From IMG/VR virus record IMGVR_UViG_3300018405_000012: a stretch of DNA of 64,000 nt; one strand, written 5' to 3'. The translations under genes were made by a program, and so were the position numbers. The DNA comes from an uncultured virus (IMG/VR IMGVR_UViG_3300018405_000012) (Duplodnaviria > Heunggongvirae > Uroviricota > Caudoviricetes). The notes under the pieces were generated by a model that saw only the letters and a program-made list of their open reading frames with translations, was not told the origin of the DNA and searched no databases. The stretch's first letter is position 1. The number at the start of each line of letters is the position of its first letter. Below are positions 5,953 to 55,673 of this stretch, piece by piece.

Positions 5953-6267
5953 CGGGGACACTCATGGGATTTCCCCATGACCTGACTATATCTTTACCTG
6001 TAAAACCAGGTACCTTCTGTTTCGGTCAATTGCCAGACCTACTCTACTCGGTTCGTCTCCCGACGCCTTTCGATAGTCGATGAACCGTACCCCTGGCTTG
6101 CTTCCCAGCAATCGGTAGGGTCTTGGCTGCGGATTGTGCAATCTTCATCTTTATTACCGTACCCTCGGAGTTACCCTCGGCCACTTCAGTGTTTCCACTG
6201 TAGCTTGGTAGATGAAGCTCTCAGCACGTTCCCGTCAATTTAAAAGGTTTAACGACGGCAATGCTTT
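5953..6267 (-). ncRNA. Group I intron without ORF (315 nt), second intron of nvRNAP beta'
   Basis: P1 CGACGGU/GCCGUCG with U-G pair, P10 GCAUU/GAUGC, R motif GUUCAUCGACUA, S motif AAGAUAUAGUC, terminal G. Confidence 0.9.
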
Positions 6268-6282
6268 ACCGTCGAAATCGGC
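6268..6282 (-). CDS. nvRNAP beta' 15-nt micro-exon encoding ADFDG
   Basis: GCC GAT TTC GAC GGT between two group I cores; completes the catalytic NADFDGD. Confidence 0.88.
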
Positions 6283-6671
6283 CGTATGTTCAGGTGAGAC
6301 GCAACGTCACCCCGCAGCATTACCTGCATAGCCCTGGCAATTACGCCAGGATACCAGACTATATCATCATCTCATGACTGAGATGCCTCCCGTTTCGACC
6401 CCGCTTGGTGGCCTACTCTACTCCCCGTAGGTTTCGATAGTCGTTGATCACATCCCATACGCTTCGGTTAATGAATTACACATTAACGGTTAGGCCCTTT
6501 CCCTGCGCGATAGGGACTTCGAGGCTGATTGACCCATTGTATCATCTACCTACTTTTCAAACCGTCACGAATGCCGTTTCCAGCTGCGTTGTGGTAAGGT
6601 AGCTTTAGCGTCTTCCAGCAGTTAGAGAGGTTCTTCGACTAGAGTCGCCCCTAGAAGGAACAATGTGACTT
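6283..6671 (-). ncRNA. Group I intron without ORF (389 nt), first intron of nvRNAP beta'
   Basis: 5' exon ends GAAU pairing with GUUC; AACUGCUGGAA, UCAACGACUA and GAUAUAGUC core motifs; terminal G at 6283. Confidence 0.88.
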
Positions 6672-7940
6672 ATTCTTATCGATCAGGTTCAGAGGACTCA
6701 TGCTGACAGTGTTATCTGTCGGGTCAGTCTTGAAGTGATCGATCTGGTTGTAGCCTATGGAACCCCTGGTCAAGGTGGGGTTCCTCGCGAACAGCGTCGG
6801 AATGGTCCCACCTGGGGATTCGTCCAGCAGTTCGTTCAGCAGGTTGTGCAAGTCCGGGTGGTAGCGCAACGTGTTCTCGTAGATCAGGGCATTCATTTCG
6901 TTGGGTGTGTAGCCCCGCGCCATGAGCTTGTTTTGCAGGTGGACCTTGAACAACAAGATACTTAGCGACCACGGCATCTCCAGGCCATCTTGACGATGTG
7001 GCTTTTGCCGGGAGGTGATGACCGAACGGAATCCCCAGTATGGCCGGGTACCATAGATCAGCTTACGCATGATCCCAGGCTTCTTAAAGATGACCTCAGA
7101 CTCGAACGACTTATAGTACTCGCTGAAGTTATTGAGGGCATTGACCATCCGCGCTTCTTTGTTAGCCTGTGGCAGCTTGGGCTGGTTCTCCGCGTTTTCG
7201 CGGTTGTCGATGCCGATGAGGATGTGTGCCGCATCGATGGCAGGGACCATCTTTGGGTCGGACACGATCCGGTTATTGGACGACTCGCGGATAAAGCCAA
7301 GGCGAGTAGGGAATGGCAGGTGTTCGGAGAACGTCCGGTCGAAATTCTCCTGAAGGAAGCGCATGATCTTGCGGCGTTTCCGGGCGCTGGCAGACGGACC
7401 AATCAGTGACGCCTTGGCCAGGGCAACCAGGATGGCTTCATAGTTCTCGATGAAGTGGTTGTAGCCGCGTGGGATCTCGAGCCGCTCAAGCTTACGCATC
7501 TTGTCGGCAGCCAATGGAGCAGCCGGTTGATAACGGGGATTGGTCAGGTACTCGAGGATGTTGAAATTAGAATGGCTGAGGTTCTTTGACAGAATCCGCC
7601 ACACCGTAAGGTTAATGAATGCTTTAATGCCCGCTGGTGCTTTGAGCCAGAGGATAGACTCCAGAGGCTTCTCGGTAACCGGGACAACCAGCGATAAGCA
7701 GTTATTGCAACGGATGTTGTAATTGTCCATGCCGACAATGGAACCGCAGTCACAGCTGGCGGTGTTGTTCAGCGAATCGCCGTCAAGACTGGCATAGATC
7801 AGGTTATTAAGCTCAAGACGATCGGCTTCCAGATCGATGTTGAACTCGTTCATGAGGATCGCAGGATGCGCCTGATGACGGAAGATGTCGTCGTAGTTGA
7901 CCACACTCAGGTAAATGCCATTGCGTTCTTTTATGGCCAT
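6672..7940 (-). CDS. Non-virion RNA polymerase beta' N-terminal subunit (phiKZ gp55-like), exon 1; spliced product about 489 aa
   Basis: Zn finger SCDCG...CNNC, FRSVIT, RNPTL, then ...SPLNLIDKN before the intron; adjacent to chimallin. Confidence 0.92.
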
Positions 7941-8037
7941 GTATAGTACCTTTATTAGCGGTTATTGGTGAGTATAAAAATTAATGGAAAGGGCATAGAT
8001 CGGGGGAGCCGGAGCCCCCCCTCTCTAATGGTGTTGC

Positions 8038-9948
8038 TTAGAACGACGAACCGCGACCGAAGCCGTTGCTCACATGGCTGCGCAGGCTGCGCTGATCGCC
8101 ATTAACCACACGACGGCTGTTCAGCAGACCGTGGGTCAGATCGCCACCACGGAAGTCGCGAATGCGAGTGTTGCCACGCAGACGACGAGCACCGAAGGTG
8201 AAGTGAGCTTGACGCTGATCGATGTTGATCTTGCAATCGGCCACCGACAGTGCCAGCGCTTCGATGAATTGCGGGTTGATGAAGGCCAGGTCGACGTAGC
8301 GGGAGAACTTGACGTTCTGCTGCAGGGCGCCGGTCAGCTGGTCGAACTGCTCGGATACGCGGATTTCCACGTCCAGGTCAGTGCGGTCGATCACGTCCTG
8401 ATAACGCAGGGCGCTTTCACCACCATCGTTCGGGTTCTGCGCCATCCAACGGAGCAGGTCCCATTCACGCAGATCGCGCTCGTTGCCCTTCTCGTCCAGC
8501 CAGGTACCGGTCAGGTAACGGGCACCGGACATCACGAGTGGGTTTTCTACGCCCAGCTCTTGAGCACGACGGCTGAAGTTGCCCGAAGTCAGGCGGTCAG
8601 CGTAGTCGTACAGACGGCGAACAGCTTCGCGGTTGGCCGAAGTGTCGTCTGCAGCATCCAGCAGCAGGCTGGTCAGCCAGCTGTTGTCGCCACCTTCTTC
8701 CAGCTCGATTGCGTATACCAGGTTTTCATCGACCAGACTGAAGAAGTACTGACCCCACTTCTCTTCGTCCAGCGAACCACGGTTGTCGAACACGATCGGT
8801 TGCTGATCTTCATCCGGGCCGAGAATGTTCAGCAGACCGCTGTCGCGAGCATCGATCTCACCACGGGCAACTTCACCCGGCAGGAAAGTACGGGCCCACG
8901 CTTGGTTCTTGGAGATCACCGAGGACGATGCCAGTGCCAGGAGCAGGAGCTCCGGGGTGATGGCGTTGCCGCTGGTGTCCATGCGGTTGATGATGTACGT
9001 CGGGGTGAAGTACGGCTGATCGCGACGACGGTCACGAGCCCAACGCTCTTCGTTCTGCGGCGGGGTGTACACGATGTTCATGTAACCACCCAGGTTGGCC
9101 AGAGGCACGGTGACGTTCTGGTCGCCCTTGCGAACGGTACCTGCAACCGATACCGCGATGTCACTGCGGCGAGGCAGGCCGTCGGCGGATACGCTTTCAC
9201 GACCGGACATGTCGACGTTGATCTCGAGGGTGGACTGCTTGTTGAGCCACTCGAGGCTGAAGAACATGTCGTTGCGGTACAGCTCGTTGTACATCGAGGA
9301 CAGAGCCGCCTGCGCGTAGAAGATGACCTGACGCGCTTCGGTAGTTTCCGGATCGTTGAAGTCGACCTTGCGGTCAACCACACGCCAGCCGCCACGGATC
9401 ACTTCGACGGAACGACGGGACTGGTCGAATGCCTTCTTGACGATGTCGTCGATGAGGGCGAGGTACGACTCGGTCACGTAATCCGAAGCGATGATCGGCA
9501 GCGGGTAGGTGCGATGGTTGATCTCGACGTTGCGGATCGGGGTTTCGTCGCTCAGCGTGCCTTCCAGCACCAGCGAGTGAACCAGTACCTTGGTAACGCC
9601 CTGATCTTCGATCGGGTACGCCAGGATCACCGAGGAGATGCTGACGTTGTTTTCCTGACCGTCCAGACCCAGCACTTGGATCTTGGTCAGGTCGATGGCA
9701 GCGGCACCGGCTACTTGACGCTCGGCCGAGAACCAGAACTTAGCGGCCTTGATGGCGTTGACCAGGGATTCACCGCTGGTGCGACGGGACATCGGGCTGC
9801 CGAGCAGACGGTTGATATCCAGCAGACCAGCGTTCAGGACCGGGTTTTCCTGAGGGGTCGGACGGGACGAGCGGCTGTTCGCCTGTTCGCGGGACGGCTC
9901 CTGCGCCTGCGAGTTGTTGCTGTTGTCGTGGCTATCTTGAACTGCCAT
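8038..9948 (-). CDS. chmA: Chimallin, major phage nuclear shell protein
   Basis: About 636 aa, strong codon bias, AAGGAG RBS, canonical position directly upstream of nvRNAP beta'. Confidence 0.88.
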   Translation of the reverse strand: MAVQDSHDNSNNSQAQEPSREQANSRSSRPTPQENPVLNAGLLDINRLLGSPMSRRTSGESLVNAIKAAKFWFSAERQVAGAAAIDLTKIQVLGLDGQENNVSISSVILAYPIEDQGVTKVLVHSLVLEGTLSDETPIRNVEINHRTYPLPIIASDYVTESYLALIDDIVKKAFDQSRRSVEVIRGGWRVVDRKVDFNDPETTEARQVIFYAQAALSSMYNELYRNDMFFSLEWLNKQSTLEINVDMSGRESVSADGLPRRSDIAVSVAGTVRKGDQNVTVPLANLGGYMNIVYTPPQNEERWARDRRRDQPYFTPTYIINRMDTSGNAITPELLLLALASSSVISKNQAWARTFLPGEVARGEIDARDSGLLNILGPDEDQQPIVFDNRGSLDEEKWGQYFFSLVDENLVYAIELEEGGDNSWLTSLLLDAADDTSANREAVRRLYDYADRLTSGNFSRRAQELGVENPLVMSGARYLTGTWLDEKGNERDLREWDLLRWMAQNPNDGGESALRYQDVIDRTDLDVEIRVSEQFDQLTGALQQNVKFSRYVDLAFINPQFIEALALSVADCKINIDQRQAHFTFGARRLRGNTRIRDFRGGDLTHGLLNSRRVVNGDQRSLRSHVSNGFGRGSSF

Positions 9949-10015
9949 GGTGTACTCCTTGGAGAGATTTCGTTGTTTACTAGGCCTAGTGAACATCGTA
10001 GTGATATTCACGTGG

Positions 10016-10043
10016 ATTATATAGCGCCATGAATTGTTTGAAT
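10016..10043 (-). promoter_or_regulatory. Putative promoter for chimallin, ATTC-N16-TATATAAT
   Basis: Recurring 28-nt motif. Confidence 0.6.
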
Positions 10044-10254
10044 GGAATTATAATTCCTAGGCTCGTACAATCCGACGGTTGCGTTTAAAAATACGACGTG
10101 ATCCACAGGAAAAGGAAATACCCTCCCTTGGCGACAGAGTGAAAACTCTGTCAGGAGCACATCTCCTATACAATAGGGGAATGGTAGTTATTTTTTACTA
10201 TTTGTCATGTTCGGCCAATCCTTTGAGATTAGACTTTTACCCAAGGACCCCATC

Positions 10255-11361: not shown

Positions 11362-11362
11362 G

Positions 11363-18271: not shown

Positions 18272-18481
18272 TTAGCTGAAGCTGGTGAACGAATTGTCCG
18301 GATTGACCTTGTTCAAAGCAGGGCCGTGGATTTCGAAACTATATCGGGTTTCTTGAAAAAGGTGATGCCATTCACCGGTCTTGCAGCGATGACATTCATA
18401 CCCGATTCCAGTCTGTGGGGTGGCATGGATGGAATCAGCGTTACCGCAACGCTCACATTCAAAGACGGAACACATTCTCAA
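18272..18481 (-). CDS. Small Zn-ribbon protein
   Basis: CERC...CHRC motifs. Confidence 0.7.
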   Translation of the reverse strand: MRMCSVFECERCGNADSIHATPQTGIGYECHRCKTGEWHHLFQETRYSFEIHGPALNKVNPDNSFTSFS

Positions 18482-18537
18482 ATCTCCTTAAAGTTGAGGG
18501 TGTCTATATCAACTTCATTATGTATGGCTTCAGAAAT

Positions 18538-18786
18538 TTACTGGTAATTTGGAACGAGGATACGCTGCTGCCATGGCATCACTTGTTGATCAGGTTCGAG
18601 ATCGTCGCATTCGTAAATTCCCACCACCCGATTGTCGTCGGTGACGTACGCGTATTCACAACCGGGAAACTGACGCAGGGCCTCAGCAATATCCAGTGCA
18701 CCAATGGTCGACGAAAAGGGTTGGCTGGTGTGTACCAGTCGTTTCTTGGACCGTTTTTCTACGTCTTCTGGTGCTGAAGTATTCAT
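18538..18786 (-). CDS. Hypothetical protein
   Basis: 82-aa ORF with AAGGA RBS. Confidence 0.65.
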   Translation of the reverse strand: MNTSAPEDVEKRSKKRLVHTSQPFSSTIGALDIAEALRQFPGCEYAYVTDDNRVVGIYECDDLEPDQQVMPWQQRILVPNYQ

Positions 18787-18801
18787 AAGAGGTCTTCCTT
18801 A

Positions 18802-19572: not shown

Positions 19573-20556
19573 TTAGAGCACGAGTCCGGTAGTGGACACG
19601 TCATCGCTGTCGCTGAAGAACGAGACAGCTTGAGAGCGGGTTTTACGCTGCATCTCCATCTCCTTCTTCAGGCCTTCGAGTTCCTGCGCCAGGGCGCCGA
19701 AGGAGTGGTTTTCGATACCAAAGAACAGGCTCTTCGACGTTTGAGCAAACGACGGCATGAAGCCATCGCAGCTGTAAGGCACGAAGACATTCGGCTGAGG
19801 GTCATCCTGCTCGCGCTTGAGGTAAGCGGCCGAGATCGGGTCGGTCAGGACTTTCTCGAACTGATCGATGTCATCGAACAGGTGGATACGAGCCAAGCAC
19901 GCCGGGATATCGGTCGACTTGTTGAACTGCAGGAAGCTGGCGATGTCGGCAGTGTCCAGGCCGTGGTTACGGCGGCTGCACAGGATTGCCAGGGCATTGA
20001 TCATCAGATGGGCTTCACGGTCGATCGAGGAGCGCGGCACATTCGGACGGTTCATGCCGAAATGGATAACCACCGGCTTGTTGGTCATGCGACCGATGGC
20101 ATCGAGCGACTTGATGGTACCGATGGTGTTCTCGGCAGTCTTGATGGACTCGTGAGAACCGGTGACGATACCAACGGCCTGGTGACCGTCTTCCAGCAGC
20201 TGTTTGAGGATCAGCGGGCCAGCGACCGAACCCGTACCACCCGACGCCGTGAAGATCACGATGTTCATGTCAGCCGGCGCGAACTTACGCAGGATGTCAG
20301 GCACTGCCTTGGCAATGACCTTGTCGTTGCTGTTGCGGATCTTACCGGAACCGTCGAGGTCCTTGAACAGCCAGGTGTTGTTTTCCAGACCTTCGGTGAG
20401 GTTGGAATCGGAGGTGTCGACGAAGGCCACTTGGAAGTCAGCAATATCTGCCGAATGGCCTGGGGTCAGGTAGTCACGACCGATGTTTATCCCTCCACCT
20501 CCGCAAGCAAAAACCCTGATGGTTCCGACCGGACGAGCACTGAGACCGTTATGCAT
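19573..20556 (-). CDS. phuZ: PhuZ phage tubulin
   Basis: CGGGGINIG T1 loop, DTS, DGSGK, SGGTGS tubulin signature; C-terminus ...GLVL. Confidence 0.95.
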   Translation of the reverse strand: MHNGLSARPVGTIRVFACGGGGINIGRDYLTPGHSADIADFQVAFVDTSDSNLTEGLENNTWLFKDLDGSGKIRNSNDKVIAKAVPDILRKFAPADMNIVIFTASGGTGSVAGPLILKQLLEDGHQAVGIVTGSHESIKTAENTIGTIKSLDAIGRMTNKPVVIHFGMNRPNVPRSSIDREAHLMINALAILCSRRNHGLDTADIASFLQFNKSTDIPACLARIHLFDDIDQFEKVLTDPISAAYLKREQDDPQPNVFVPYSCDGFMPSFAQTSKSLFFGIENHSFGALAQELEGLKKEMEMQRKTRSQAVSFFSDSDDVSTTGLVL

Positions 20557-21316
20557 GGTGTTTTCCTTCTGTGGTTTCTTTGAGTTTTTGACGCTTGAGT
20601 CTGGCACGTAGAGCATCTGGTTTAATACCTAATTGTCTAGCAGCCTCAGCGTTACTTGGGTAAGTAACGCCATTGGCAGTTACTGGTTTTGCGTTTATCG
20701 TTGCCACAAGGGCTCTGAATTCCGGGGACTGTCTGTGTGCAAGGAGTCGGTCACGACTGTCTTCATCTTGCCATGCCTTGGTTCTTGCTGCAGCTAGCTT
20801 TTCTAACTCATCAAGTGATCGCTCGCGCCCAACGTGCTTAGCCCTGAATTCAGGATCTTTCCACAGTTCCTTAGAGCGCTCAGACTGCACCTGCCTGGCT
20901 GCCTCGTCAGCAAACTGGCGCCGAGCAGCTTCGCTCAGTTTCTTCTTGGCCTCTTCAGGGACCGGGACACCTAAGCCTGTTCGACGAGCATCGGTAGAGA
21001 CGTTAAACAGTCTGCCTTGACTATGGCCGCTGTCAAGCAAATGCTGTTCAATGTCAAGAGCTTCTTCTTTACTCTCAGCCTTAATGAAACCCAGGTCGAA
21101 ACGAGGATCGTCATCATAAGCCTTTTGTAAATTTGGGTTCCGGTGAGTCCCGTCTTTCAAACGGTTCTTGTGCTGATTAATGCGTGTGTAGAGGTTGTGC
21201 GTGCTGCCGACATATGCCCTGCCCGTCTTCTGATGAGTCAGGACATAAGCCGCTGGAAATGAATGTTCTTTCCTGGTCGGTTTGCCGCTCAATGGGGCAA
21301 GAACTATGTCGTTCAT
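20549..21316 (-). CDS. Free-standing GIY-YIG homing endonuclease
   Basis: AAYVL...YVGST...R...H...E catalytic pattern, NUMOD3-like region, C-terminal HTH (YPSNAEAARQLGI). Confidence 0.9.
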   Translation of the reverse strand: MNDIVLAPLSGKPTRKEHSFPAAYVLTHQKTGRAYVGSTHNLYTRINQHKNRLKDGTHRNPNLQKAYDDDPRFDLGFIKAESKEEALDIEQHLLDSGHSQGRLFNVSTDARRTGLGVPVPEEAKKKLSEAARRQFADEAARQVQSERSKELWKDPEFRAKHVGRERSLDELEKLAAARTKAWQDEDSRDRLLAHRQSPEFRALVATINAKPVTANGVTYPSNAEAARQLGIKPDALRARLKRQKLKETTEGKHHA

Positions 21317-21319
21317 TGC

Positions 21320-21391
21320 TTATTCCTCGATGACCCCGCACGAATAGATACGCACTTGGCCGACAGGACGAGTAGAAAGACCTTGAGACAT
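21320..21391 (-). pseudogene. Orphaned original phuZ N-terminus (MSQGLSTRPVGQVRIYSCGVIEE*)
   Basis: 23-codon ORF matching the PhuZ start MHNGLSARPVGTIRVFACG; own GAGGA RBS. Confidence 0.85.
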
Positions 21392-22351: not shown

Positions 22352-22370
22352 CAAAGACCGGAAACAAAGA

Positions 22371-24854: not shown

Positions 24855-25325
24855 AGGACTTCCCCTAGATAGAATCGTTCTATATGATTCCCGCGAGACA
24901 GCATAAATAACCAGCCAGAAGCTGGTAGATTGGGGGAACTCCTCCTTCGATCTCGCTCACGCTGATCTCAGTCGGTCTTGAACTTACTGATGGATCGTAA
25001 TAAATTACGGTATCAATTAATGGTATGGTTATATGTTTTACTTAGTGTATATAGAGGGCTTCGCCCTCTTAAGAGCATTACCAGCATTGGTGATTTGTCT
25101 CCCTTACGCTACGCTACAGGATCACAAATCAGTAGTCTCCAAACCCCCCAGGATACCAGTGATACAGTACGAGTCTTTTTGGCCGAATTCCCCCCCCCTT
25201 TTTTCAAATGGGGCGAAAAACACCTATACCAATATGGACCCTATTGTAAAAGAAAAAGATCACCCGACAAAGTACCCCTACACAGCCTTCGAGAGGGACT
25301 GTGTAGGGGCTTTATGTCAGATGAA

Positions 25326-42525: not shown

Positions 42526-42536
42526 GGGACGACTCC

Positions 42537-42956
42537 TTAATCGAAACGGCGAAACTCACCCAGCTCAACCAGAGCTTCGGTGAGGATGGCAACAGTCAGT
42601 ACGGCACCGCGAGTGAAGCCACCGGCGGCATGGGCTTCTTCCACCGCTGCCATGGCAGCGGCAAACTCTTCAGGGGCGATGGCCACCAGCACGCCGTCGT
42701 GACGCCCAGGGTGGGCGCTCTTCTGGACGTGACCTGTGATCAGCTTGTTGCTGAACATGTCGATAAACATGCCGGCTTCAGCGATATCGCTCTCGGTAAG
42801 ATCATCTTCATTGAACCCTGTCAATTCGATGATCTTGTCTTTGATCGCGATCATCTGCTTTTCGGCAGCAGCATCGATGGAGATCACGTAACCCTTTTCG
42901 CTTTCGATCTTGCGGACCAGAATGTCTTTAAGGGCTTCTTTAGTTTTAGCGGACAT
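42537..42956 (-). CDS. Hypothetical protein
   Basis: 139 aa, GGAG RBS. Confidence 0.8.
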   Translation of the reverse strand: MSAKTKEALKDILVRKIESEKGYVISIDAAAEKQMIAIKDKIIELTGFNEDDLTESDIAEAGMFIDMFSNKLITGHVQKSAHPGRHDGVLVAIAPEEFAAAMAAVEEAHAAGGFTRGAVLTVAILTEALVELGEFRRFD

Positions 42957-42998
42957 GATTAGATCTCCATTAGATCAGGGGTAGGGTATCTCACCGTT

Positions 42999-48845: not shown

Positions 48846-49970
48846 TTATTTACCGTCCATCCACATCGCGGCAGCGTTTTCACCAATCGCTGTCAAGACC
48901 GAGATGGTCATGCCAGACAACAGTGCGGACAATACAATCCGGTCCATGACCGACTTGGCACCGAAGACTGCGTTGACTGTCCGTCCCGATTCGGTCTCAT
49001 TGATCCCCGACAACCGGTGACCGACAACACTCTTCATCTGGGAGGCAAATACCAACTTGTCCCCTACCGACATTCCTTCACGGTGCGTGATGTACACCTT
49101 GATTGCCATGTGATCGAGTTCGAGACCGTTGCCATCAATACGCAATGACTGATCCACTTGCCCACTGGCTGCCGGTTTACCCAGCCGCTTGGCCACCTTA
49201 CGGCGACGCTTGTCGTGAGCCAACGCCAACTCCAAAAGCGAATCCGACATGTCGTCCGGGTCACCATGGTAGAAGACTTCGATCTTCGAGACTTCACCTA
49301 CAGCGCCTGCCGAAGGTGTTGCCGATGACATTAGGCGCAAGGTATCCAGATCGTCGTCTGAGAACAAGCCGGATTCGGCTGTTACAGCGTCTTCGATCGT
49401 ACATAGGATAGTTGCGATGTCCGTGTGGTCGCCTTCCTTGACCAAGTTACGGATTGTCTGGTCAAACCGAACAACAATGGTCTTGACCTTGGTGACTTCC
49501 GATCCCAGTTGCTCAGCCAACCAATCATCAATGGCCGAGGAGTCCTCGAGCGTATAGGACGCTTCCATCAAAGCTGTCCGGGCAATCACCCCTGCCATCC
49601 ACTGTACCTGCTTGGGATGGAACCGGCTGGGCTTGAAGAACCCGGCGTTGTACTTGAGGATGTCGCCCTTCTCGATCTTGTCGCCCAGCTTCAGGGTTGT
49701 AGCCTGTCGCTGCGGATAGACCGAACCGGCCGAGATGCCATACTGCGTGGTCAGATCAACGTGTTCAAACGTCCCGTCCTCATACGCCACCACCAGATGC
49801 TCGTCACTCTGCTCAACCACTTCACCTGCTTTAGAAGCAGGCACGGCGAAGATCTCATCGACCCGATGGGCCAGAATGTGATCGTAACCGGTGCTGATAG
49901 GTGACTCACGGTAACCCTGTGCAGCGATTACGTGAGACTGCTGGATGCCGATGAAGTTGACGCGTTTTGG
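48846..49970 (-). CDS. Virion RNAP beta subunit (phiKZ gp178-like), exon 3 (PKRVNFIGIQQSH...)
   Basis: EDS and GDKL...QMKSV beta motifs; frame open back to the terminal G at 49971. Confidence 0.9.
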   Translation of the reverse strand, partial: PKRVNFIGIQQSHVIAAQGYRESPISTGYDHILAHRVDEIFAVPASKAGEVVEQSDEHLVVAYEDGTFEHVDLTTQYGISAGSVYPQRQATTLKLGDKIEKGDILKYNAGFFKPSRFHPKQVQWMAGVIARTALMEASYTLEDSSAIDDWLAEQLGSEVTKVKTIVVRFDQTIRNLVKEGDHTDIATILCTIEDAVTAESGLFSDDDLDTLRLMSSATPSAGAVGEVSKIEVFYHGDPDDMSDSLLELALAHDKRRRKVAKRLGKPAASGQVDQSLRIDGNGLELDHMAIKVYITHREGMSVGDKLVFASQMKSVVGHRLSGINETESGRTVNAVFGAKSVMDRIVLSALLSGMTISVLTAIGENAAAMWMDGK

Positions 49971-51356
49971 CGATGTCTTCGGTTAGGTTCGTTAAGCCTA
50001 ACCCGCACCATTACGTGCAGCTCTGGGCTTTCCCCAGATGTCGAGACTATATCTTTACCCTCACTGTAGGGTAGTCCACATTTCCACTCACTTGAGTGTA
50101 CAGGCTGACGAGGCCTTAGTCGTTGAACCCGATCACCGTATCCGAAGACTTAGGTGCTTGGCTGCTGATTACCCAATCCTCACACTTTTCTAACCATGAC
50201 CGTCTGATCTTTCGATCTCCGTTTTGGTAGTGAGGCTCTAAGGATGTCCCAGCAATTAGAGGACGCTCAGTTAACCATTACTGATTAACCGGACCATTGT
50301 TACGGGCTGCATAGTCCGAATAGTACATGAATCTATATCCATCCCCATACGCCCGATCTGGGCGCTTGAGTCTGTAATCAAGAAGAGTTGGCGAGATATC
50401 GAATTTCCTAGCCGCATCTGTACATTGAGGAAATATCTCAATTGACTCACACGTGTCGTCAATTACTACGACAGACCTTTTCTTAGTGTACAAATCCAAT
50501 TCCAAGTAGGGGTCTTCTACGTGTCGCCATGGTTTAGGATCACTAGCCAATTTTACCTGAATGTATCCAGGGAGTACTGGCTGGTTTTCTTGTTTTAACC
50601 ATAGTGTCAACTTCGATTGATTGGTTCCTAGGAGCATAGCGAGCGTTTTAAGCTTCGAGAATGACTTTATTTTCCCTGTTAGAAGTTCTCTCACTAAAAC
50701 TACTTTGCCATTGCGGTCCGGGAATGTCTTCCTTAATTCCTTTCCAGGAATGAACCAATCTTCTTCATCATGGAGACGTTTATACTGCCGTCCATCGGGA
50801 AATACCTTCTGTCCCTTAGACATTATCCTCCACAGTACAGCGTCCTTTGTCAAACCTAGATTAAGTGCGCATTTGATAGCACTTGGAAACTCAATAACAA
50901 TACCAGTTACCGAGTCCCTGACAAGGACGGGAACGCATTTACTGGTCAATTGGTTATAACCAGCGTGTTCAGCGTTACCTGTATAAGTCTCCCACTCGAG
51001 ATTATCAAGGAAATCATCGCCCTTGATGCAGTTCTTGTGGTTGACCACTAGGTTATCTATTGGGTATCCTGGGTGTTTGAAGACGAAGCACATGAGTCTG
51101 TGTCGACCCCAAGTTAACACCTTTCCATTGTCCCCAATTAATCGAAAGTTAAAGTAACCCTTCGGATTTCGACTTCCTTGCAGATATTTCCCATCTGCCC
51201 GCCTAATTACTTCCCCAGTTATGGAAATCCCATAACGACTATATCCAGAAATTTCATAGAAACCTGGATAGTCCTCTAACTCGATTGGATTCATGTGCAA
51301 CTCCTATCATGACATACAATAGGAGTACTATATTCATTACTATACAGCAAACATTA
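49971..51356 (-). mobile_element. Group I intron (1386 nt) carrying an HNH homing endonuclease near its 5' end
   Basis: Joins ...SDRDD|PKRVNF in frame; AAUUGCUGGGA, CAGCAGCC, GUUCAACGACUA and AAGAUAUAGUC core motifs at about 50040-50260. Confidence 0.92.
50278..51294 (-). CDS. Intron-encoded HNH homing endonuclease (NUMOD4-like N-terminus, HNH, repeated helical DNA-binding modules)
   Basis: HRL...VNHKN...DNLEW...N..HA; AT-richer than its flanks; ATG 51294 with AGGAG RBS. Confidence 0.9.
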   Translation of the reverse strand: MNPIELEDYPGFYEISGYSRYGISITGEVIRRADGKYLQGSRNPKGYFNFRLIGDNGKVLTWGRHRLMCFVFKHPGYPIDNLVVNHKNCIKGDDFLDNLEWETYTGNAEHAGYNQLTSKCVPVLVRDSVTGIVIEFPSAIKCALNLGLTKDAVLWRIMSKGQKVFPDGRQYKRLHDEEDWFIPGKELRKTFPDRNGKVVLVRELLTGKIKSFSKLKTLAMLLGTNQSKLTLWLKQENQPVLPGYIQVKLASDPKPWRHVEDPYLELDLYTKKRSVVVIDDTCESIEIFPQCTDAARKFDISPTLLDYRLKRPDRAYGDGYRFMYYSDYAARNNGPVNQ

Positions 51357-52814
51357 ATCGTCTCGGTCAGAGAACGGTGAGATCAAAGCTGATGTCGACA
51401 GCAGGTTAGCCGAACCATCCTTTTCCTTGTCGTACTTGCGAACGGTACCGCGAATGCTGGTGATGTTGGCATTCGGTGACATGTAGGTGATGACCGCCAC
51501 GTCCCCCGAGTCCACTGTATCCCCAGAGATGAAGCCAATATCACTTTCCTTGTACAGGCGAGATTCTGCGGTCATCGAGCGGCTGCTCCGTCCACCGCGA
51601 CCCCCGTACGTGATGATCTCCTTTTGCTTGAGGTTCTGAATCGGGTTGATGTCATCGACCAGTGCCGACGCCGGGTCTTGGACGATGTTGGTCCAGACTT
51701 CATGGGGCTTCATGGTGACTTGAGAGTTGCTCGATGCACTGCGCGAGTTATACACCCGAATCGAACGCACCAGTTCCCCATAGACTGCTCCCGGAATCCG
51801 CTCATAGCCCTTGGCTCGTTCGAGACCATCGATCAGACCTTCCGCCCCTTCCACAACAGTTGGGACATAACGGTTGATCAGCAGCTCGACAGCCCGTAGC
51901 AACAATGGCACATACTCGGTGGGTTCTTTCATCCACTCGAGTACGCCCTTGGTGATCGGATCGACCCACATGGCGTTCATCAGGTCCAGTTCACGCAAAT
52001 ACCGCAACCCGATGCCGTTGGCGTCCAATACCGTGAAGTACACATCCTTGGCATTGAAGCTATGGCGACTGAAGCTCTTGATCTGCTTGTGATAGTGCAC
52101 GAACCCGGCGAAAATCATACTGACTTTGTCGTCGGTCTTGTCGAGCACCACCGTTTCATCCAGGAACTTCAACGCGTACTCATCCGGCCCCATCTGCAGC
52201 CTAGTTCCAACAGGGACCGTCCGGAAGCTGGCTTTGGTCAGTTCAAGCAACCGATCAAACCCGACCAGATACGCCAGTGCGATTCCAACCGGCATGGTTT
52301 TACCGAAGATGCTGATTTCAGCCATCCCCACCGGGGCCTTTTCACGGTTCAGGTTAAACAGCTCTTCGACATGACCCAGCTCTTCAACCTGTTCATTACC
52401 CTTAACCAGGTAGAAAGCATTGTCACGGTCCACCAGTACATAACCGTTGTCGCGCTTACCGCAGACCACCATCCCAGGATGCTTGTTCTCCAGCGCTTCG
52501 ACCTGTACCATGTCCAATACACGGCTGCGGTGGCGGTTCTTGTAATCGAACCAGTACTGTCCATTCGACTCAAAGGACATCACACGGCTGCCGATGATGG
52601 TGTAAATCGTGGGCAGGTCAAGTCCGAAGTCCGCTACGTCAGCGACCTTTACATTGTTGATGTCGTTATCGGTCTTATCCAGACCCTTGGCGACAATCTG
52701 CTTACCGATCCAGGCATCGTAGTTGAACACAGAGCGCTGAGAGCGTTCGATGAACAACTTACTGTAGTAGCTGGTCAGTGCTACACGGGTGGGGTTAACT
52801 TTTCTGATGGGAAT
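51357..52814 (-). CDS. Virion RNAP beta subunit, exon 2 (IPIRKV...SDRDD)
   Basis: GYERI.G, INPI and GRGGRS motifs. Confidence 0.9.
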
Positions 52815-53278
52815 CAACCCCATCTGGTTGGACCATATCTTCATCCTCAGCACTCTATTGAGTTGTAGGATGCCTACCGTTTCCCCATTCTTAATGAACA
52901 GGTACTCTACTCGCTTTAAAGACTCCTAAGAGCCACCACCTGGCTTTATGCAGATGTCATTAGTCCGTATGTACGGATGTAGCTTTCGATGGCCTCTGAG
53001 CACATCCCATGGCCTTGTAGGGCGTTAGGGACTTCGCTGCGTCGGTTGCGCCTATCGTTGACGTTTTTACCATGCTCATCGCTTCCATTACTGGGATGAG
53101 TGTTACTCTCAGTTTCCTGGAGCAAGTGGTAGCCAATGACCTTAACGGCGTTTTCCCGCAATTAGGTAGGTTTGCTAGTGACGCATTACTGCATCACGCG
53201 AACATTCGTTTCCGGTGTAATGATTTTACTGGGGTCGAACACATGTCCCCGTGCTTTAACGATTACTGGAAATTATTT
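52815..53278 (-). ncRNA. Group I intron without ORF (464 nt) in virion RNAP beta
   Basis: Joins KAD|IPIRK; P1 GCGGAU/GUUCGC, P10 GAAU/AUUC, AAUUGCGGGAA, UCAGAGGCCA and AAGAUAUGGUCC; terminal G. Confidence 0.88.
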
Positions 53279-55087
53279 ATCCGCTTTCTGAGTCCGCAAC
53301 CGATACCGTTGACCGTTGGAGATGTACACCCCGCGCTTGTCAACGACCGGCACCCGGAACGAGATGGTCGAAGGTTTTCCCGTTACAGGAGTCAACTGGA
53401 TCTTGTGGATCTCATAGTGACTGACCGCATCCTGCACCACCTCTACCTTATACCCAGTAACTGCTACACCGGCTTTCTGAACGGACATCACCGCATTGAG
53501 AATGTCCTTTTTCATCACCCGTTCGATGTACTGACTGTCCATCTGCTCCACGGTGGATTGCAACATGGATTCGTCACGCACCGCGTCAGTCTTAGGGTAG
53601 TTGTCAGCTGCCGAGAGGATTTGATCTTCATCGGTGATGACCAGCGACTCTTCCACAGTCTTCCCTGTGTTCCACGGATCGGGCATGGTCTTGTACGACT
53701 CGGCCAGACGCTGCATCCGACGGTACTGGGCAGCGGTATACAGGTCCTTGTCCACCAATTCATCGAGCTTAGCCTGAATGCTGCTAGTCAGGGTGTGTGC
53801 GATGTTGCTGGTACCGACCACTTGACCGACGCTTTCGCGTTTATCCTGGTCAGCCTCAATCACCAGCTCCCCGTCCTCATCGGTGAGTACAGTGTCGGTA
53901 TTGTCGGTCGCTGGCTCATCGAGTTCTTCAGCCAGTTCTTCTTCCACCTCGTCGATGGTCAGTTCGGGAGTGGTTGACTCCTCCAGCAGTCGGGCTTCTT
54001 CGTCAGCTTCTTCCTTGGCCTGAGCCGCTTCTTCAGGGTCCACCTCGCCTGCTTCAGGGGATTCCTCCAGCAAATCCGGATCAACTTCGGCCTGCACTGT
54101 ACTGGTCTGAGCAACAACCCGTGTCAACATCTTCAGGAAGCGCAACTGGATGATCTTGGGGTCAATGCCAGCCGCAGCTTCCATCGAAACCTGCATGTCC
54201 TCATCCAGCGTCATGTCACCATTGTTCTCCATCGAGACATACCGATCAAAGGTCTCCTCGAAGTCAAACTCAGGGTCCGGTTCACCGATGGTCAGAGATT
54301 CCATAGAGACACCGGCACCTGCTTTACGCCAGCTATTGAGCAAGCCCAAGTTGATGGTCAGGAACCCAGTCTCGCGGCGAATAAGCAGTTCGATCTCATG
54401 TAGGCGCGATTCGTCCAACTTAGCCATTGGCGCCTTGGCACGGTGTTCGCCCAACCACATCCACAGATCCAGCAGATCCAGACGCTCACGTGAGTTGAAT
54501 ACTTTCATCAACATCGGCGTCATGTTGCGCTCTGCTTTACGCAGATCCGACAGGGCTGGCAGGCTCTGAGGGACATCCATCACGACCAGATGATGACGTT
54601 CGTGAGGAGTCTTCAGCTGATTGATCCGCTCCCATTGCGTGGAACGAATGTTCTTCCAGTACCACCACCGACTCAGAGCCGAACGCTGATACTTGTACAT
54701 GTGTCCGATCATGGCGTAGTTGACCACCACCATGTTGGTCAGCTCTTTGGTGCTACCGATGTAATCGCGCATCGGTCGGATGAACATGTGCTCACGCCGA
54801 TACTGCTGAATCATCGGACCAATCAGCTTATAGGTCGGCCGGGGATTGCCGTCTTTAACCAACAGATCAGATACATGATCAATGAAGACCAACCGCTGGG
54901 CCGCCTTGATGGCAGGGTCGTCATTGGCCGGGCCGAGTTCAGTCTCGGTGACGGGCATGTAGTGGTAGACCGTACCACGCGGTAGCGCAAAGCGACTGAT
55001 CGGCCTGACCTTGGGGTTTTCCAGACCACCCAAGCGTCGAATACCGAACAGCTTTTCATAGCGCTCGTAAAGAAACATTACAGCCAT
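53279..55087 (-). CDS. Virion RNAP beta subunit, exon 1; spliced product about 1463 aa
   Basis: AGGAG RBS before ATG 55087; ends ...SNGQRYRLRTQKAD; acidic linker with SME sites. Confidence 0.88.
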
Positions 55088-55116
55088 GTTAAATCTCCTG
55101 GCGCTCACATATCGAC

Positions 55117-55311
55117 TTAGGCTTTTGCCCGGCCGTGTTTGAAGCGACCCGTCATGTTGGCAATCACGTACTTGATGGTGTCGTAGTTGTAGGAGGAAAG
55201 CAGGCTGCCGTCAGTGTCGACCCAATACTGGCGACTGCTGAGCAGTTTGTCGTTTTCATCCAAGGCTTCATTACTCATCACCAAGGTTGCAGAACCAGTG
55301 TCTCCGTCAAA
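55117..55311 (-). CDS. Virion RNAP beta' subunit, exon 2 (FDGDTGS...)
   Basis: Completes ADFDGD. Confidence 0.9.
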   Translation of the reverse strand, partial: FDGDTGSATLVMSNEALDENDKLLSSRQYWVDTDGSLLSSYNYDTIKYVIANMTGRFKHGRAKA

Positions 55312-55673
55312 CGGTATCTTCGGGTAGAGCCGCAACGCTCTACCCCGTGCACTCAAGCACTGCTCCAGGCTTTCCCTAGATGTCGAGACTATATCTTCAC
55401 CTTCACCCTGAGGTGGTCAGGTGTCTCCCATTTCGGAACGCTTGTTCCTACGGGGCGCTACCCCCTAGTCGTTGAACCTTCCCCATGCCGTTTGGTTTAG
55501 GGGCTTGGCTGCTAAAGGGACTCTTAGAGTCCACGGTTCCCCATTGTACATCCGTCCCGTTTTCAGACCATGGCTTTGCCTTTCGGCTCGCAGTGGTGGG
55601 ACAGCTTTAGGGGGTTCCAGCAATTAGAGAGAAATCACTCCATCATTTCGGATGGAGGGGACTTTACTTGTTA
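55312..55673 (-). ncRNA. Group I intron without ORF (362 nt) in the virion RNAP beta' catalytic motif
   Basis: P1 GGAU/GUCC, AAUUGCUGGAA, GUUCAACGACUA and AAGAUAUAGUC; terminal G at 55312. Confidence 0.92.

What the first reader, a model, noticed from the sequence alone, without database searches (positions are those of the whole stretch)
5953..55673. Five group I introns confined to RNAP genes, four of them without an endonuclease
Seen: introns at 5953-6267, 6283-6671, 49971-51356, 52815-53278 and 55312-55673 share core motifs (+ strand GACTATATC or GACCATATC). I saw none in the DNA polymerase, terminase or tail genes. The catalytic motif is cut at three different positions (N|ADFDG|D in nvRNAP, AD|FDGD in vRNAP), so neither polymerase has an intact catalytic motif in the DNA. 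Inference: ORF-less introns may be retained as target-site immunity against endonucleases of co-infecting phages, or be mobilised in trans by free-standing endonucleases.
Basis: partly seen in the sequence, partly recalled or inferred. Interest (0 to 1): 0.78.

Follow-up and report, generated by a model that had tools for sequence, protein, structure and literature searches.

The report
Five self-splicing introns in phage polymerase genes

Summary
Rfam finds five group I introns at the stated places (four at or above the curated cut-off, one at 47.9 of 50 bits) and no other in the 64 kb. In the non-virion polymerase the motif NADFDGD is split N|ADFDG|D, leaving a 15-base exon between two introns; in the virion polymerase it is split AD|FDGD.

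It is a known kind. Every site carries an endonuclease-bearing intron in some relative: phiKZ gp55/gp56 and gp180/gp179, PhiPA3 gp210 (42% identical to the window's own endonuclease), Vibrio phage vB_pir03, and several metagenomic contigs. This scan has also noted such introns before on other DNA.

New here:
- The 15-base exon, which recurs in a relative that is 71% identical in protein.
- Divergent exon tracts beside the introns.
- An endonuclease-less intron 95.5% identical between phages whose host genes are 74.6% identical, which indicates recent lateral transfer.
- A 385-base circular RNA form of one intron in an environmental metatranscriptome.

The immunity idea is plausible but untested.

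The parts
6672..7940 (-). nvRNAP beta'-N gene (phiKZ gp55-like), exon 1, ends ...LNLIDKN
   Evidence: phrog_2987 E 2e-116. 99% identical to the G002 gene. Ends in AAU at the 5' splice site.
6283..6671 (-). Group I intron 1 (389 nt, no ORF) at N|ADFDGD
   Evidence: RF00028 52.3 bits. Absent from G002. Same site as the phiKZ gp55/gp56 intron. 70-75% identical to the L012 intron at the same site. A 385-nt circular RNA form joining 6283 to 6667 is present in RNA run X18.
6268..6282 (-). 15-nt exon 2, GCCGATTTCGACGGT = ADFDG
   Evidence: Read from the sequence. Needed for the gap-free alignment to G002. The same exon lies between two introns in L012 at 4621-4635. Its last six bases GACGGU pair with the guide sequence of intron 2 (alignment).
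5953..6267 (-). Group I intron 2 (315 nt, no ORF) at ADFDG|D
   Evidence: RF00028 61.1 bits. Absent from G002. The same site is occupied by HNH-bearing introns in L009, L011, L062 and L012, and by a 296-nt ORF-less intron in the distant L068.
5767..5952 (-). nvRNAP beta'-N exon 3, begins DALWGELPLD
   Evidence: phrog_2987 C-terminus. 90% identical to G002 here against 99% in exon 1.
55674..57122 (-). vRNAP beta'-N gene (phiKZ gp180-like), exon 1, ends ...KLVGLQAD
   Evidence: phrog_2986 E 3e-161. Sequence read.
55312..55673 (-). Group I intron 3 (362 nt, no ORF) at AD|FDGD
   Evidence: RF00028 47.9 bits, just under the cut-off. 95.5% identical to the G007 vRNAP intron, which scores 53.0 bits. 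82% identical over 299 nt to the core of the HNH-bearing nvRNAP intron of L013. Same site as the phiKZ gp180/gp179 intron.
55117..55311 (-). vRNAP beta'-N exon 2, begins FDGDTGSATL
   Evidence: phrog_2986 positions 485-538. 100% identical to the G002 protein here.
53279..55108 (-). vRNAP beta gene (phiKZ gp178-like), exon 1, ends ...RTQKAD
   Evidence: phrog_3148 positions 1-574. Sequence read.
52815..53278 (-). Group I intron 4 (464 nt, no endonuclease) at KAD|IPIRK
   Evidence: RF00028 55.3 bits. Absent from G002. Same site as an HNH-bearing intron in Vibrio phage vB_pir03, with the core 74% identical over 196 nt. P1 is not resolved by the Rfam alignment, which starts 60 nt inside the intron.
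51357..52814 (-). vRNAP beta exon 2, ends ...SPFSDRDD
   Evidence: phrog_3148 positions 570-1050. Sequence read.
49971..51356 (-). Group I intron 5 (1386 nt) at DD|PKRV, carrying an HNH endonuclease gene
   Evidence: RF00028 72.1 bits for the core at 50021-50323. Same site as the PhiPA3 gp210 intron and the 342-nt ORF-less gap in 201phi2-1. Core 71% identical over 292 nt to the PhiPA3 core.
50278..51300 (-). HNH homing endonuclease ORF (340 aa from TTG; an in-frame ATG at 51294 follows an AGGAG)
   Evidence: phrog_59 E 3e-25. Pfam HNH_3 scores 18.6 bits, below its 24.8 cut-off. 42% identical over 325 aa to PhiPA3 gp210, E 2e-81, and His88 aligns with gp210 His82.
48846..49970 (-). vRNAP beta exon 3, begins PKRVNFIGIQQSH
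   Evidence: phrog_3148 positions 1095-1420. Sequence read.

Best explanation
These are five self-splicing group I introns of one phage intron family. They sit in the most conserved codons of three genes for the phage's two multisubunit RNA polymerases.

How they work:
- Each intron is transcribed with its gene and removes itself from the pre-mRNA, restoring the catalytic motif. A terminal G and a U.G pair at the 5' splice site are present in all five.
- At the DNA level the family spreads by homing. An intron-borne HNH endonuclease of the I-HmuI/gp210 type cuts the intronless allele of a co-infecting relative. Repair then copies in the intron plus a short stretch of flanking exon.

State of this genome:
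- Only the intron at DD| still carries its endonuclease.
- The other four are endonuclease-less copies. They persist because only a base-perfect deletion is tolerated inside catalytic codons.
- They can still move as passengers. They travel inside the conversion tract of a neighbour (the N|A intron lies 15 nt from the G|D site) or use an endonuclease supplied in trans by a related intron at the same or the paralogous site.

Shown: identity as group I introns, exact junctions, presence/absence polymorphism with divergent flanks, endonuclease-bearing counterparts at all sites, lateral transfer of one ORF-less intron, and a circular RNA of one intron.

Inferred: homing as the mechanism, hitch-hiking, and splicing of the other four introns.
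For: 1. Identity. Five full-length RF00028 matches (model positions 1-253): 72.1, 61.1, 55.3, 52.3 and 47.9 bits. U at -1 and G at the 3' end in 5 of 5.

2. Junctions. The spliced genes of 1470, 1644 and 4413 nt align with 0 gaps to the intronless genes of G002.

3. Polymorphism. G002 (250.5 kb, 94% complete) is 95-98% identical to the window in every aligned block of the 64 kb. It has no RF00028 match at E<=0.01 and lacks exactly the five introns.

4. Flank divergence.
   - nvRNAP beta'-N: 49 of 79 mismatches lie within +-120 nt of the N|A junction (12.9 expected, P 8e-20).
   - vRNAP beta'-N: 14 of 51 within +-30 nt (1.9 expected, P 3e-9).
   - vRNAP beta site 1: 9 of 68 within +-30 nt (0.9 expected, P 4e-7).
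   - DD| site: 4 of 68 (P 0.014). All figures.
   - The nvRNAP tract is 81.2% identical to G002 against 98.6% for the rest of the gene.
   - At all five sites the window has T at -1 where G002 has the synonymous C.

5. Endonuclease-bearing counterparts.
   - N|A: phiKZ gp55/gp56.
   - G|D: L009, L011 and L062 (330-334 aa HNH, 3' of the core) and L012 (187 aa HNH, 5' of the core).
   - AD|F: phiKZ gp180/gp179 and the nvRNAP genes of L013 and L015.
   - KAD|IPIRK: vB_pir03.
   - DD|: PhiPA3 gp210, 42% identical to the window's endonuclease.

6. Lateral transfer. The window's AD|F intron is 95.5% identical over 356 nt to G007's, while the host genes are 74.6% identical. G007 also carries an HNH-bearing relative of this intron (82% over 299 nt) at the paralogous nvRNAP site.

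7. Hitch-hiking. In the metagenomic survey (2 of 24 evaluable loci) and in the window, the N|A intron was seen only together with a G|D intron. In L012 that neighbour carries the endonuclease. phiKZ has an N|A intron with its own endonuclease.

8. RNA. One contig of the metatranscriptomic run X18 (415 nt, depth 73.8) joins 6667 to 6283, giving a 385-nt circle that runs from the intron's terminal G to its fifth base. The flanking exons have depth 0.
Against: - Splicing was not observed for four of the five introns. The RNA circle comes from an environmental sample and a copy that differs in about 4-6 of 385 letters, not from this phage in a known host.
- A long-read transcriptome study of phiKZ reported no evidence of splicing for its predicted introns under its conditions (PMC10914365, passage read).
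- Gain versus loss is not settled. The flank divergence would also arise if G002 had lost its introns by recombination with an intronless donor. G002's nvRNAP tract is only slightly closer to other relatives than the window's is (for example 75.1 vs 72.6%, and 76.0 vs 73.5%), and no donor was found.
- The very short tracts at the two vRNAP beta sites could reflect selection for pairing with the guide sequence rather than co-conversion.
- No endonuclease remnant is visible in the four ORF-less introns. 'Lost' versus 'never had' an endonuclease is therefore open.
- The fifth intron scores 47.9 bits, under Rfam's cut-off.
- P1 of the intron at 52815-53278 is not resolved.
Confidence: 0.8

Rival explanations
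1. Adaptive retention. The ORF-less introns are kept by selection because they break up the recognition sites of homing endonucleases carried by co-infecting relatives, protecting the phage's polymerase genes from being cut.
For: - Endonuclease-bearing introns exist at all five sites in relatives, so the threat is real.
- PhiPA3 gp210, whose orthologue the window carries, reduces the yield of intron-minus phiKZ in co-infection (PMC11620839, passages read).
- In the nvRNAP motif, introns at N|A and G|D leave only 15 bp between them. This would also disrupt the target of an endonuclease homing to the third site, AD|F, which relatives L013 and L015 use.
Against: - Not tested here.
- A 97-98% identical sister genome has none of the introns. 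Most relatives are unoccupied: 16 of 24 nvRNAP beta'-N loci, 20 of 21 vRNAP beta'-N loci and all vRNAP beta loci.
- From recall, not from a call: HNH enzymes of the I-HmuI group can also nick intron-containing DNA of a heterologous phage, so occupancy need not protect.
- Passive retention explains the data as well.
Confidence: 0.3
2. The four ORF-less introns are mobilised in trans by a free-standing endonuclease of the same genome, such as the GIY-YIG gene at 20549-21316.
For: The GIY-YIG gene (Pfam GIY-YIG E 4e-9) is absent from G002 as a clean indel, just like the introns (window 20510-21335). Trans homing by free-standing endonucleases is described for T4 mobE and the defunct I-TevIII (PMC2790892, abstract seen in the listing).
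Against: - Relatives of this GIY-YIG protein occur in 4 of 5 related genomes regardless of RNAP intron content. G003 and G005 have copies but no intron in the vRNAP beta'-N, vRNAP beta or nvRNAP beta'-N genes.
- It sits next to PhuZ, 13 kb or more from any intron. Free-standing endonucleases usually target a site beside their own gene (recalled).
Confidence: 0.07
3. The introns have been taken over as regulators. Because both polymerases need splicing to regain their catalytic motif, splicing efficiency (GTP, Mg2+, folding in the phage nucleus) would gate polymerase production, and skipping the 15-nt exon would give a dead subunit.
For: Neither beta' gene has an intact catalytic motif in the DNA. 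Exon skipping is documented for short exons of 23 and 34 nt between two group I introns in phage Twort and in Coxiella (PMC10136302, passages read).
Against: - The sister genome and most relatives work without the introns.
- The two nvRNAP introns use different guide sequences (pairing with AAGAAU and GACGGU), which favours exon inclusion.
- There are no expression data.
Confidence: 0.05
4. The insertions are dead relics and the interrupted genes are pseudogenes, or are expressed as split subunits.
For: Jumbo-phage RNAP genes are naturally split at other positions (PMC7598289, passage read).
Against: - All five are full-length ribozyme matches.
- The exons stay in frame and are 97-100% conserved against the sister genome.
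- A split inside NADFDGD would separate the three Mg-binding aspartates.
- An excised circular intron RNA exists.
Confidence: 0.02

Closest known systems
PhiPA3 gp210 intron in the vRNAP beta gene (Birkholz et al. 2024, Science; PMC11620839, passages read)
   Same: Same insertion site directly after the two conserved aspartates (window ...DRDD|PKRV, PhiPA3 ...MNDD|MKRV). The HNH endonuclease lies 5' of the ribozyme core in both. The endonucleases are 42% identical over 325 aa, and the catalytic His82 is conserved. The cores are 71% identical over 292 nt.
   Different: The host is a different chimallivirus lineage; the nearest isolate is Pseudomonas phage pPa_SNUABM_DT01, 82% identical in protein. 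Activity of the window's enzyme is not tested.
phiKZ introns gp55/gp56 (nvRNAP beta') and gp180/gp179 (vRNAP beta'), predicted by Mesyanzhinov 2002 and Ceyssens 2014 as cited in PMC11512511 and PMC10914365 (passages read)
   Same: Exactly the same sites: phiKZ ...KAPN|ADFDGDQ and ...LGAD|FDGDT. Both have a group I core (92.2 bits for the gp179 intron). The window's AD|F intron is 76% identical over 152 nt to the gp179 intron core.
   Different: Both phiKZ introns carry HNH genes, while the window's copies at these sites carry none. phiKZ was not seen to have a second intron at G|D, so it has no 15-nt exon.
201phi2-1 gp273/gp274 intron (PMC11512511, passage read)
   Same: An ORF-less interruption of 342 nt at the DD| site of vRNAP beta. 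This shows that endonuclease-less copies at these sites occur in isolated phages.
   Different: Different site from the window's four ORF-less introns. The window's copy at DD| still has its endonuclease.
Staphylococcus phage Twort orf142: three group I introns with a 23-nt internal exon (Landthaler and Shub 1999, as described in PMC10136302, passages read)
   Same: Several group I introns in one phage gene, separated by a very short exon.
   Different: The window's exon is 15 nt and encodes five residues of a catalytic motif. The two flanking introns have different guide sequences. Exon skipping is not examined here.
Trans or collaborative homing of endonuclease-less introns (T4 mobE/I-TevIII, PMC2790892, abstract seen; the cyanophage psbA case is recalled)
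   Same: An intron without a working endonuclease spreads through cuts made by an enzyme encoded elsewhere.
   Different: Here the inferred helper is an HNH gene inside a neighbouring intron 15 nt away (L012) or inside a related intron at the paralogous site of the other polymerase (G007), not a free-standing gene. This is inferred, not shown.
Vibrio phage vB_pir03 (MT811961.1) vRNAP genes
   Same: An HNH-bearing group I intron at the same vRNAP beta site (...SQKVD|VPIRK), with the core 74% identical over 196 nt. A second intron lies in the DFDGD motif of vRNAP beta'-N.
   Different: Its beta'-N intron sits at a fourth position, ADFD|GD. Its record annotates the pieces as separate hypothetical proteins.

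Membership tests
Group I self-splicing intron (Rfam RF00028) | Covariance-model score at or above the curated gathering score (50 bits) over the whole model | tested here: met
   Four of five score 72.1, 61.1, 55.3 and 52.3 bits over model positions 1-253. The fifth scores 47.9 bits. Its 95.5% identical G007 copy scores 53.0.
Group I self-splicing intron (Rfam RF00028) | U as the last exon base (U.G pair in P1) and G as the last intron base | tested here: met
   5 of 5 for both features. P1 with U.G is shown by the Rfam alignments for the two nvRNAP introns. P1 of the intron at 52815-53278 is not resolved.
Group I self-splicing intron (Rfam RF00028) | Removal restores an uninterrupted, conserved reading frame | tested here: met
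   Spliced genes of 1470, 1644 and 4413 nt align with 0 gaps to the intronless G002 genes and read NADFDGDALWGE like 5 intronless relatives.
Group I self-splicing intron (Rfam RF00028) | Excision as RNA (spliced exons, or free linear or circular intron) | tested here: inconclusive
   A circular 385-nt form of the N|A intron, with the terminal G joined to base 5, is present in one environmental RNA run, with the exons uncovered. Nothing was found for the other four introns. No ligated-exon read was seen.
Group I self-splicing intron (Rfam RF00028) | Protein-independent self-splicing with guanosine in vitro | not testable with these tools
   Needs a bench assay.
HNH homing endonuclease of the I-HmuI / PhiPA3 gp210 type (ORF 50278-51300) | HNH catalytic motif and DNA-binding modules | tested here: inconclusive
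   Pfam HNH_3 scores 18.6 bits (cut-off 24.8) and I-TevI_DNA-bd 22.3 bits (cut-off 27), both below threshold. PHROG 59 'HNH endonuclease' gives E 3e-25. The sequence VVNH88KN aligns with gp210 VVNH82KN.
HNH homing endonuclease of the I-HmuI / PhiPA3 gp210 type (ORF 50278-51300) | Full-length homology to an experimentally studied member at the same intron site | tested here: met
   42% identity over 325 aa to PhiPA3 gp210, E 2e-81. Same DD| site.
HNH homing endonuclease of the I-HmuI / PhiPA3 gp210 type (ORF 50278-51300) | Site-specific cleavage of the intronless allele | not testable with these tools
   Needs a bench assay on G002-type DNA.
Mobile intron (homing) | Presence/absence polymorphism between close relatives, with co-converted exon flanks | tested here: met
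   All five introns are absent from the 97-98% identical G002. Mismatches are clustered at four of five junctions with P<=4e-7, and weakly at the fifth with P 0.014. The direction, gain or loss, is not resolved.
Mobile intron (homing) | Intron more similar between genomes than the host gene is | tested here: met
   Met for 1 of 5. The AD|F intron is 95.5% identical against 74.6% for the host gene between the window and G007. Not seen for the N|A intron: 70-75% identical to L012, against 67% for the gene.

The most novel reading that the evidence does not exclude
The catalytic-motif codons shared by the two polymerase paralogues act as one common landing pad.

- HNH endonucleases of introns in the nvRNAP gene also open the paralogous vRNAP site, and the reverse. 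The shared flank is GCGGAT|TWYGAYGGNGA.
- As a result, endonuclease-less introns are carried between paralogues and between phages that are 25% diverged.
- The pair of introns around the 15-nt ADFDG exon moves as a single cassette, driven by whichever member holds an endonuclease.

This would be a collaborative, cross-paralogue homing network operating inside the phage nucleus. Occupied sites would also shield both polymerases from rivals' enzymes.
Probability: 0.3. Interest if true: 0.6.

Novelty: new member of a known kind. Interest (0 to 1): 0.4.

Why it matters
Gene models for uncultured chimalliviruses, and for some isolates such as vB_pir03, break these polymerase genes into 'hypothetical' fragments. 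The exact junctions given here correct that.

The locus also offers a natural matched pair for studying intron-mediated competition between co-infecting jumbo phages. The two phage genomes are 97-98% identical, one with five introns and a free-standing endonuclease and one with none. This extends the single experimental case, PhiPA3 gp210 against phiKZ.

The 15-nt exon encoding ADFDG between two ribozymes is, as far as my searches show, shorter than the 23- and 34-nt examples discussed for group I exon skipping. It would be a demanding substrate for studying how two adjacent ribozymes fold and splice in order.

None of this changes the known picture of what these elements are.

Tried and rejected
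- Own genome: not held. I used the nearest records G001, G011 and G002 instead, so a genome-wide 'confined to RNAP genes' could not be tested. The thymidylate synthase gene of the window's own lineage was not found in G001 or G011.
- Donor of the nvRNAP flank tract: none of 10 relatives is close to it (69-74% identity), so the direction of transfer stays open.
- Endonuclease remnants in the four ORF-less introns: tblastn with 8 endonuclease proteins gave only noise, best E 0.18.
- Close relatives of the twin introns among isolated phages: only short core matches to unrelated phage introns of Bacillus, Escherichia, Vibrio, Campylobacter and other phages (47 records, none covering 80%).
- Link between the free-standing GIY-YIG gene and the introns: rejected.
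- Runs X3 and X4 (DNA) showed the intron-plus form only, and no intronless joint was listed. Contigs can drop rare variants, so this says nothing about absence.
- Run X13 gave high depth on 6053-6286 from partial matches at 90-95% with loose ends. These are intron cores of other organisms and are not informative.
- An attempt to annotate the other window/G002 indels failed on stop codons and was dropped.
- Literature: no paper holds both 'group I intron' and 'NADFDGD'. The search on short exons between group I introns returned the Twort and Coxiella cases only. Subscription journals are not covered, so this is not proof of absence in print.
- Earlier notes of this scan: none for this genome.

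Full report
**What is there**

The window is part of a nucleus-forming jumbo phage (Chimalliviridae). It encodes:
- chimallin (Pfam PF25677, E 5e-36);
- PhuZ tubulin, a DNA polymerase, the large terminase subunit and a tail sheath;
- three RNA polymerase genes, all on the minus strand.

The three polymerase genes are:
- a non-virion RNAP beta'-N gene (phrog_2987, phiKZ gp55-like) around 5767-7940;
- a virion RNAP beta'-N gene (phrog_2986, phiKZ gp180-like) around 55117-57122;
- a virion RNAP beta gene (phrog_3148, phiKZ gp178-like) around 48846-55108.

Rfam finds five group I introns on the minus strand. Four reach the curated cut-off (72.1, 61.1, 55.3 and 52.3 bits) and one falls just below it (47.9 of 50). 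Each covers the whole model. Nothing else resembling a group I intron appears in the 64 kb at E<=1.

**Exact anatomy**

Reading the minus strand gives three gene structures.
- nvRNAP beta'-N: exon 7940-6672 (...LNLIDKN), intron 6671-6283, a 15-nt exon 6282-6268 (GCCGATTTCGACGGT, ADFDG), intron 6267-5953, exon 5952-5767 (DALWGE...).
- vRNAP beta'-N: exon 57122-55674 (...GLQAD), intron 55673-55312, exon 55311-55117 (FDGDTG...).
- vRNAP beta: exon 55108-53279 (...TQKAD), intron 53278-52815, exon 52814-51357 (IPIRK...SDRDD), intron 51356-49971, exon 49970-48846 (PKRVNF...).

Every 5' exon ends in U and every intron ends in G.

A metagenomic genome, G002 (250.5 kb, 94% complete), is 95-98% identical to the window in every aligned block across all 64 kb, yet has no group I match at all. 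The in-silico spliced genes of 1470, 1644 and 4413 nt align to its uninterrupted genes without a single gap. Five intronless relatives read ...IDKNAD(F/Y)DGDALWGELPLD... straight through.

Four introns (315, 389, 362 and 464 nt) hold no endonuclease gene and no recognisable remnant of one. The fifth (1386 nt) holds a 340-aa HNH endonuclease.

**Is it more than chance?**

Yes. The matches are full-length ribozyme models with E-values of 4e-9 to 2e-16 for this search. The junctions are fixed independently by the gap-free alignment to the intronless allele.

**Where the introns sit**

All five lie in invariant codons.
- Two lie inside NADFDGD of the nvRNAP beta'.
- One lies inside ADFDGD of the vRNAP beta'.
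- One lies directly after the paired aspartates of beta (...DRDD|). This is the position that Birkholz et al. describe for the PhiPA3 gp210 intron (PMC11620839, passages read).
- One lies at KAD|IPIRK in beta.

**Relatives: a family of mobile introns using the same few sites**

Survey of nvRNAP beta'-N in IMG/VR contigs. Of 25 loci, one is cut off before the motif. Of the other 24, 16 are uninterrupted and 8 are interrupted inside the motif:

| Pattern | Loci | Endonuclease |
|---|---|---|
| G\|D only | 4 | three carry a 330-334 aa HNH gene 3' of the core; one distant locus (32% protein identity) has a 296-nt ORF-less intron |
| AD\|(F/Y) | 2 | a 330-331 aa HNH gene 5' of the core |
| Both N\|A and G\|D, with the same 15-nt exon between them | 2 | see below |

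One of the twin loci is the window's own lineage. The other, L012, is 71% identical in protein. In L012 the N|A intron is ORF-less and the G|D intron carries a 187-aa HNH gene.

Isolated phages with an intron at the same sites:

| Phage | Site |
|---|---|
| phiKZ gp55/gp56 | N\|A (...KAPN\|ADFDGDQ) |
| phiKZ gp180/gp179 | AD\|F (...LGAD\|FDGDT; core 92.2 bits) |
| PhiPA3 gp210 | DD\| |
| 201phi2-1 | DD\|, a 342-nt ORF-less gap |
| Vibrio phage vB_pir03 | KAD\|IPIRK, HNH-bearing, core 74% identical over 196 nt to the window's |
| Vibrio phage vB_pir03 | ADFD\|GD, a fourth position in the vRNAP beta' motif |

So each of the window's five sites has an endonuclease-bearing counterpart somewhere.

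The window's own endonuclease is a full-length homologue of PhiPA3 gp210 (42% identity, E 2e-81). The histidine whose mutation inactivates gp210 (H82) is conserved (the H82R passage was read).

Occupancy is otherwise low:
- vRNAP beta'-N is interrupted in 1 of 21 loci.
- vRNAP beta is interrupted in 0 of 20 loci at site 1 and 0 of 17 at the DD| site.
- Among GenBank phage records, 240 of 274 (nvRNAP beta'-N) and 268 of 288 (the region around beta site 1) match in one uninterrupted piece covering at least 80% of the query.

**Evidence of movement**

1. Differences between the window and G002 cluster at the junctions.
   - 49 of 79 mismatches in the nvRNAP gene lie within 120 nt of the N|A junction (P 8e-20).
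   - 14 of 51 in the vRNAP beta'-N gene lie within 30 nt (P 3e-9).
   - 9 of 68 lie within 30 nt of beta site 1 (P 4e-7).
   - Only 4 of 68 lie within 30 nt of the DD| site (P 0.014).
   - The roughly 290-nt nvRNAP tract is 81% identical to G002, against 98.6% for the rest of the gene.
   - This is what co-conversion during homing leaves behind. It cannot say by itself which genome changed.
   - G002's tract is slightly closer to the other relatives than the window's is, which weakly favours import into the window lineage.
2. At all five sites the window has T where G002 has a synonymous C at the last exon base. A group I intron needs a U there.
3. The ORF-less AD|F intron of the window is 95.5% identical over 356 nt to the ORF-less intron at the same site in genome G007. 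The two host genes are only 74.6% identical. An intron without an endonuclease has therefore crossed between well-diverged phages recently.
4. That intron's core is 82% identical over 299 nt to the HNH-bearing intron at the paralogous AD|Y site of the nvRNAP gene in G007 itself. The exon flanks of the two paralogous sites share GCGGAT|TWYGAYGGNGA. An endonuclease acting on both sites is a reasonable, untested, source of mobility.
5. In the metagenomic survey and in the window, the N|A intron was seen only together with a G|D intron 15 nt away. Any homing event at G|D would carry it along. I read it as a hitch-hiker. phiKZ shows that the same site can also hold an intron with its own endonuclease.

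**RNA evidence**

Laying public runs on 5000-8500 gave one informative result.

In a metatranscriptomic run (X18), a 415-nt contig at depth 73.8 maps to 6283-6641 and 6612-6667. That is a 385-nt circle in which the intron's terminal G (6283) is joined to the fifth base of the intron (6667). The bins on either side of the intron (5000-6169 and 6755-8500) have depth 0.

Circularisation by attack of the terminal G near the intron's 5' end, releasing a short 5' piece, is the classic fate of an excised group I intron (established knowledge). The cut here follows a U.

This confirms the 3' splice site and shows that a copy of this intron, differing in about 4-6 letters, is excised in nature. It is an assembled contig from an environmental sample, so it is good but not conclusive evidence, and it concerns one intron of five.

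An independent sludge metagenome (X3) holds a 17-kb contig with both nvRNAP introns.

**How it most likely works**

- The introns splice themselves out of the three pre-mRNAs and restore the catalytic motifs. This is shown for excision of one intron and inferred for the rest.
- In the twin arrangement, the upstream intron's guide pairs with AAGAAU. The downstream intron's guide pairs with GACGGU, the last six bases of the 15-nt exon (alignments). The two ribozymes therefore recognise different 5' splice sites, which should favour inclusion of the tiny exon.
- At the DNA level they are products of the homing cycle: invasion by an HNH-bearing intron, spread, loss of the endonuclease gene, and persistence because only a perfect deletion is viable in these codons.

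- 'Mobilised in trans' is supported in substance, by lateral transfer of an ORF-less intron. It is not supported for free-standing endonucleases. The window's GIY-YIG gene (20549-21316), also absent from G002, has relatives in 4 of 5 related genomes irrespective of their RNAP introns.
- 'Retained as immunity' is plausible given the endonucleases found at every site and the gp210 precedent. Nothing here tests it, and an almost identical phage lives without any of the introns.
- 'Confined to RNAP genes' holds for the window and for two near-identical contigs (G001, 107 kb, three matches; G011, 51 kb, two matches). It is not a rule of the clade. G006, G007 and G008 have a group I intron in thymidylate synthase.

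**Comparison with what is known, and novelty**

Group I introns with HNH endonucleases in phiKZ-like RNAP genes have been in print since the phiKZ genome paper. They are cited in PMC10914365 and PMC11512511 (passages read). One has been studied in depth (PMC11620839).

Notes from this scan on other genomes also describe introns in the DFDGD motif of Goslar-like and phiKZ-like phages, including crowded cases. I checked the phiKZ claims myself.

The window therefore adds members, not a kind. What I did not find in print (searches; subscription journals are not covered):
- the 15-nt catalytic exon between two introns;
- the use of up to four positions within one seven-codon motif across two paralogous polymerases;
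- the matched intron-plus and intron-minus sister genomes;
- the evidence that endonuclease-less copies still move.

**Verdict**

- Observation: confirmed.
- Interpretation: partly supported.
- Novelty: new member of a known kind.
- Interest: moderate (0.4).

Noticed in passing
window 20510-21335 (ORF 20549-21316, minus strand): A free-standing GIY-YIG homing endonuclease gene next to PhuZ is a clean insertion relative to the 97-98% identical G002. Relatives of the protein occur in 4 of 5 related genomes, and G006 has up to six matches.
   Followed up: partly
window 18476-18801, 24140-24878, 42527-42990, and around 11446 and 22358-22367: These are the other places where the window and G002 do not align. 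They are replaced segments (326 vs 694 nt, 739 vs 1040 nt, 464 vs 380 nt) and two short G002-only insertions of about 190 and 180 nt. Their content was not determined.
   Followed up: no
L035 1501-1749, L020 1501-1746, L037 1501-1747 (genomes G007, G006, G008): A roughly 250-nt ORF-less group I intron (84.6, 53.0 and 70.9 bits) interrupts the thymidylate synthase gene of three relatives at phrog_160 position 210/211, recalling the T4 td intron. G002's thymidylate synthase is uninterrupted.
   Followed up: partly
L093 2461-3822 and L092 2329-3875 (Vibrio phage vB_pir03, MT811961.1): The GenBank record annotates the exons of two intron-split vRNAP genes as separate 'hypothetical proteins'. Its beta'-N intron sits at ADFD|GD, a fourth position in the motif.
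   Followed up: partly
window 52946-53161, minus strand: A 71-aa TTG-started ORF lies inside the 464-nt intron at 52815-53278. It has no similarity to any of 8 endonucleases tried and was not scanned against protein families. It is probably chance.
   Followed up: partly
L012 4305-4421 vs 5329-5444: The two adjacent introns of L012 share a 117-nt stretch at 85% identity. The G|D cores of L009 and L011 are 85-86% identical to L012's although their endonuclease genes sit on opposite sides of the core. This suggests exchange between neighbouring introns and independent endonuclease insertions.
   Followed up: no
L076 about 7649-7686; L090 and L091 5121-6437: One relative shows an apparent loss of about 90 codons in vRNAP beta (query residues 865-953). 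Two distant relatives (41% identity) have about 1.3 kb between the beta'-N gene and the start of beta. Neither was examined.
   Followed up: no
window 6053-6286 in run X13: Very high summed depth (150-550) comes from short 90-95% matches with loose ends. These are the conserved cores of other organisms' group I introns in a wastewater library, not this phage.
   Followed up: no
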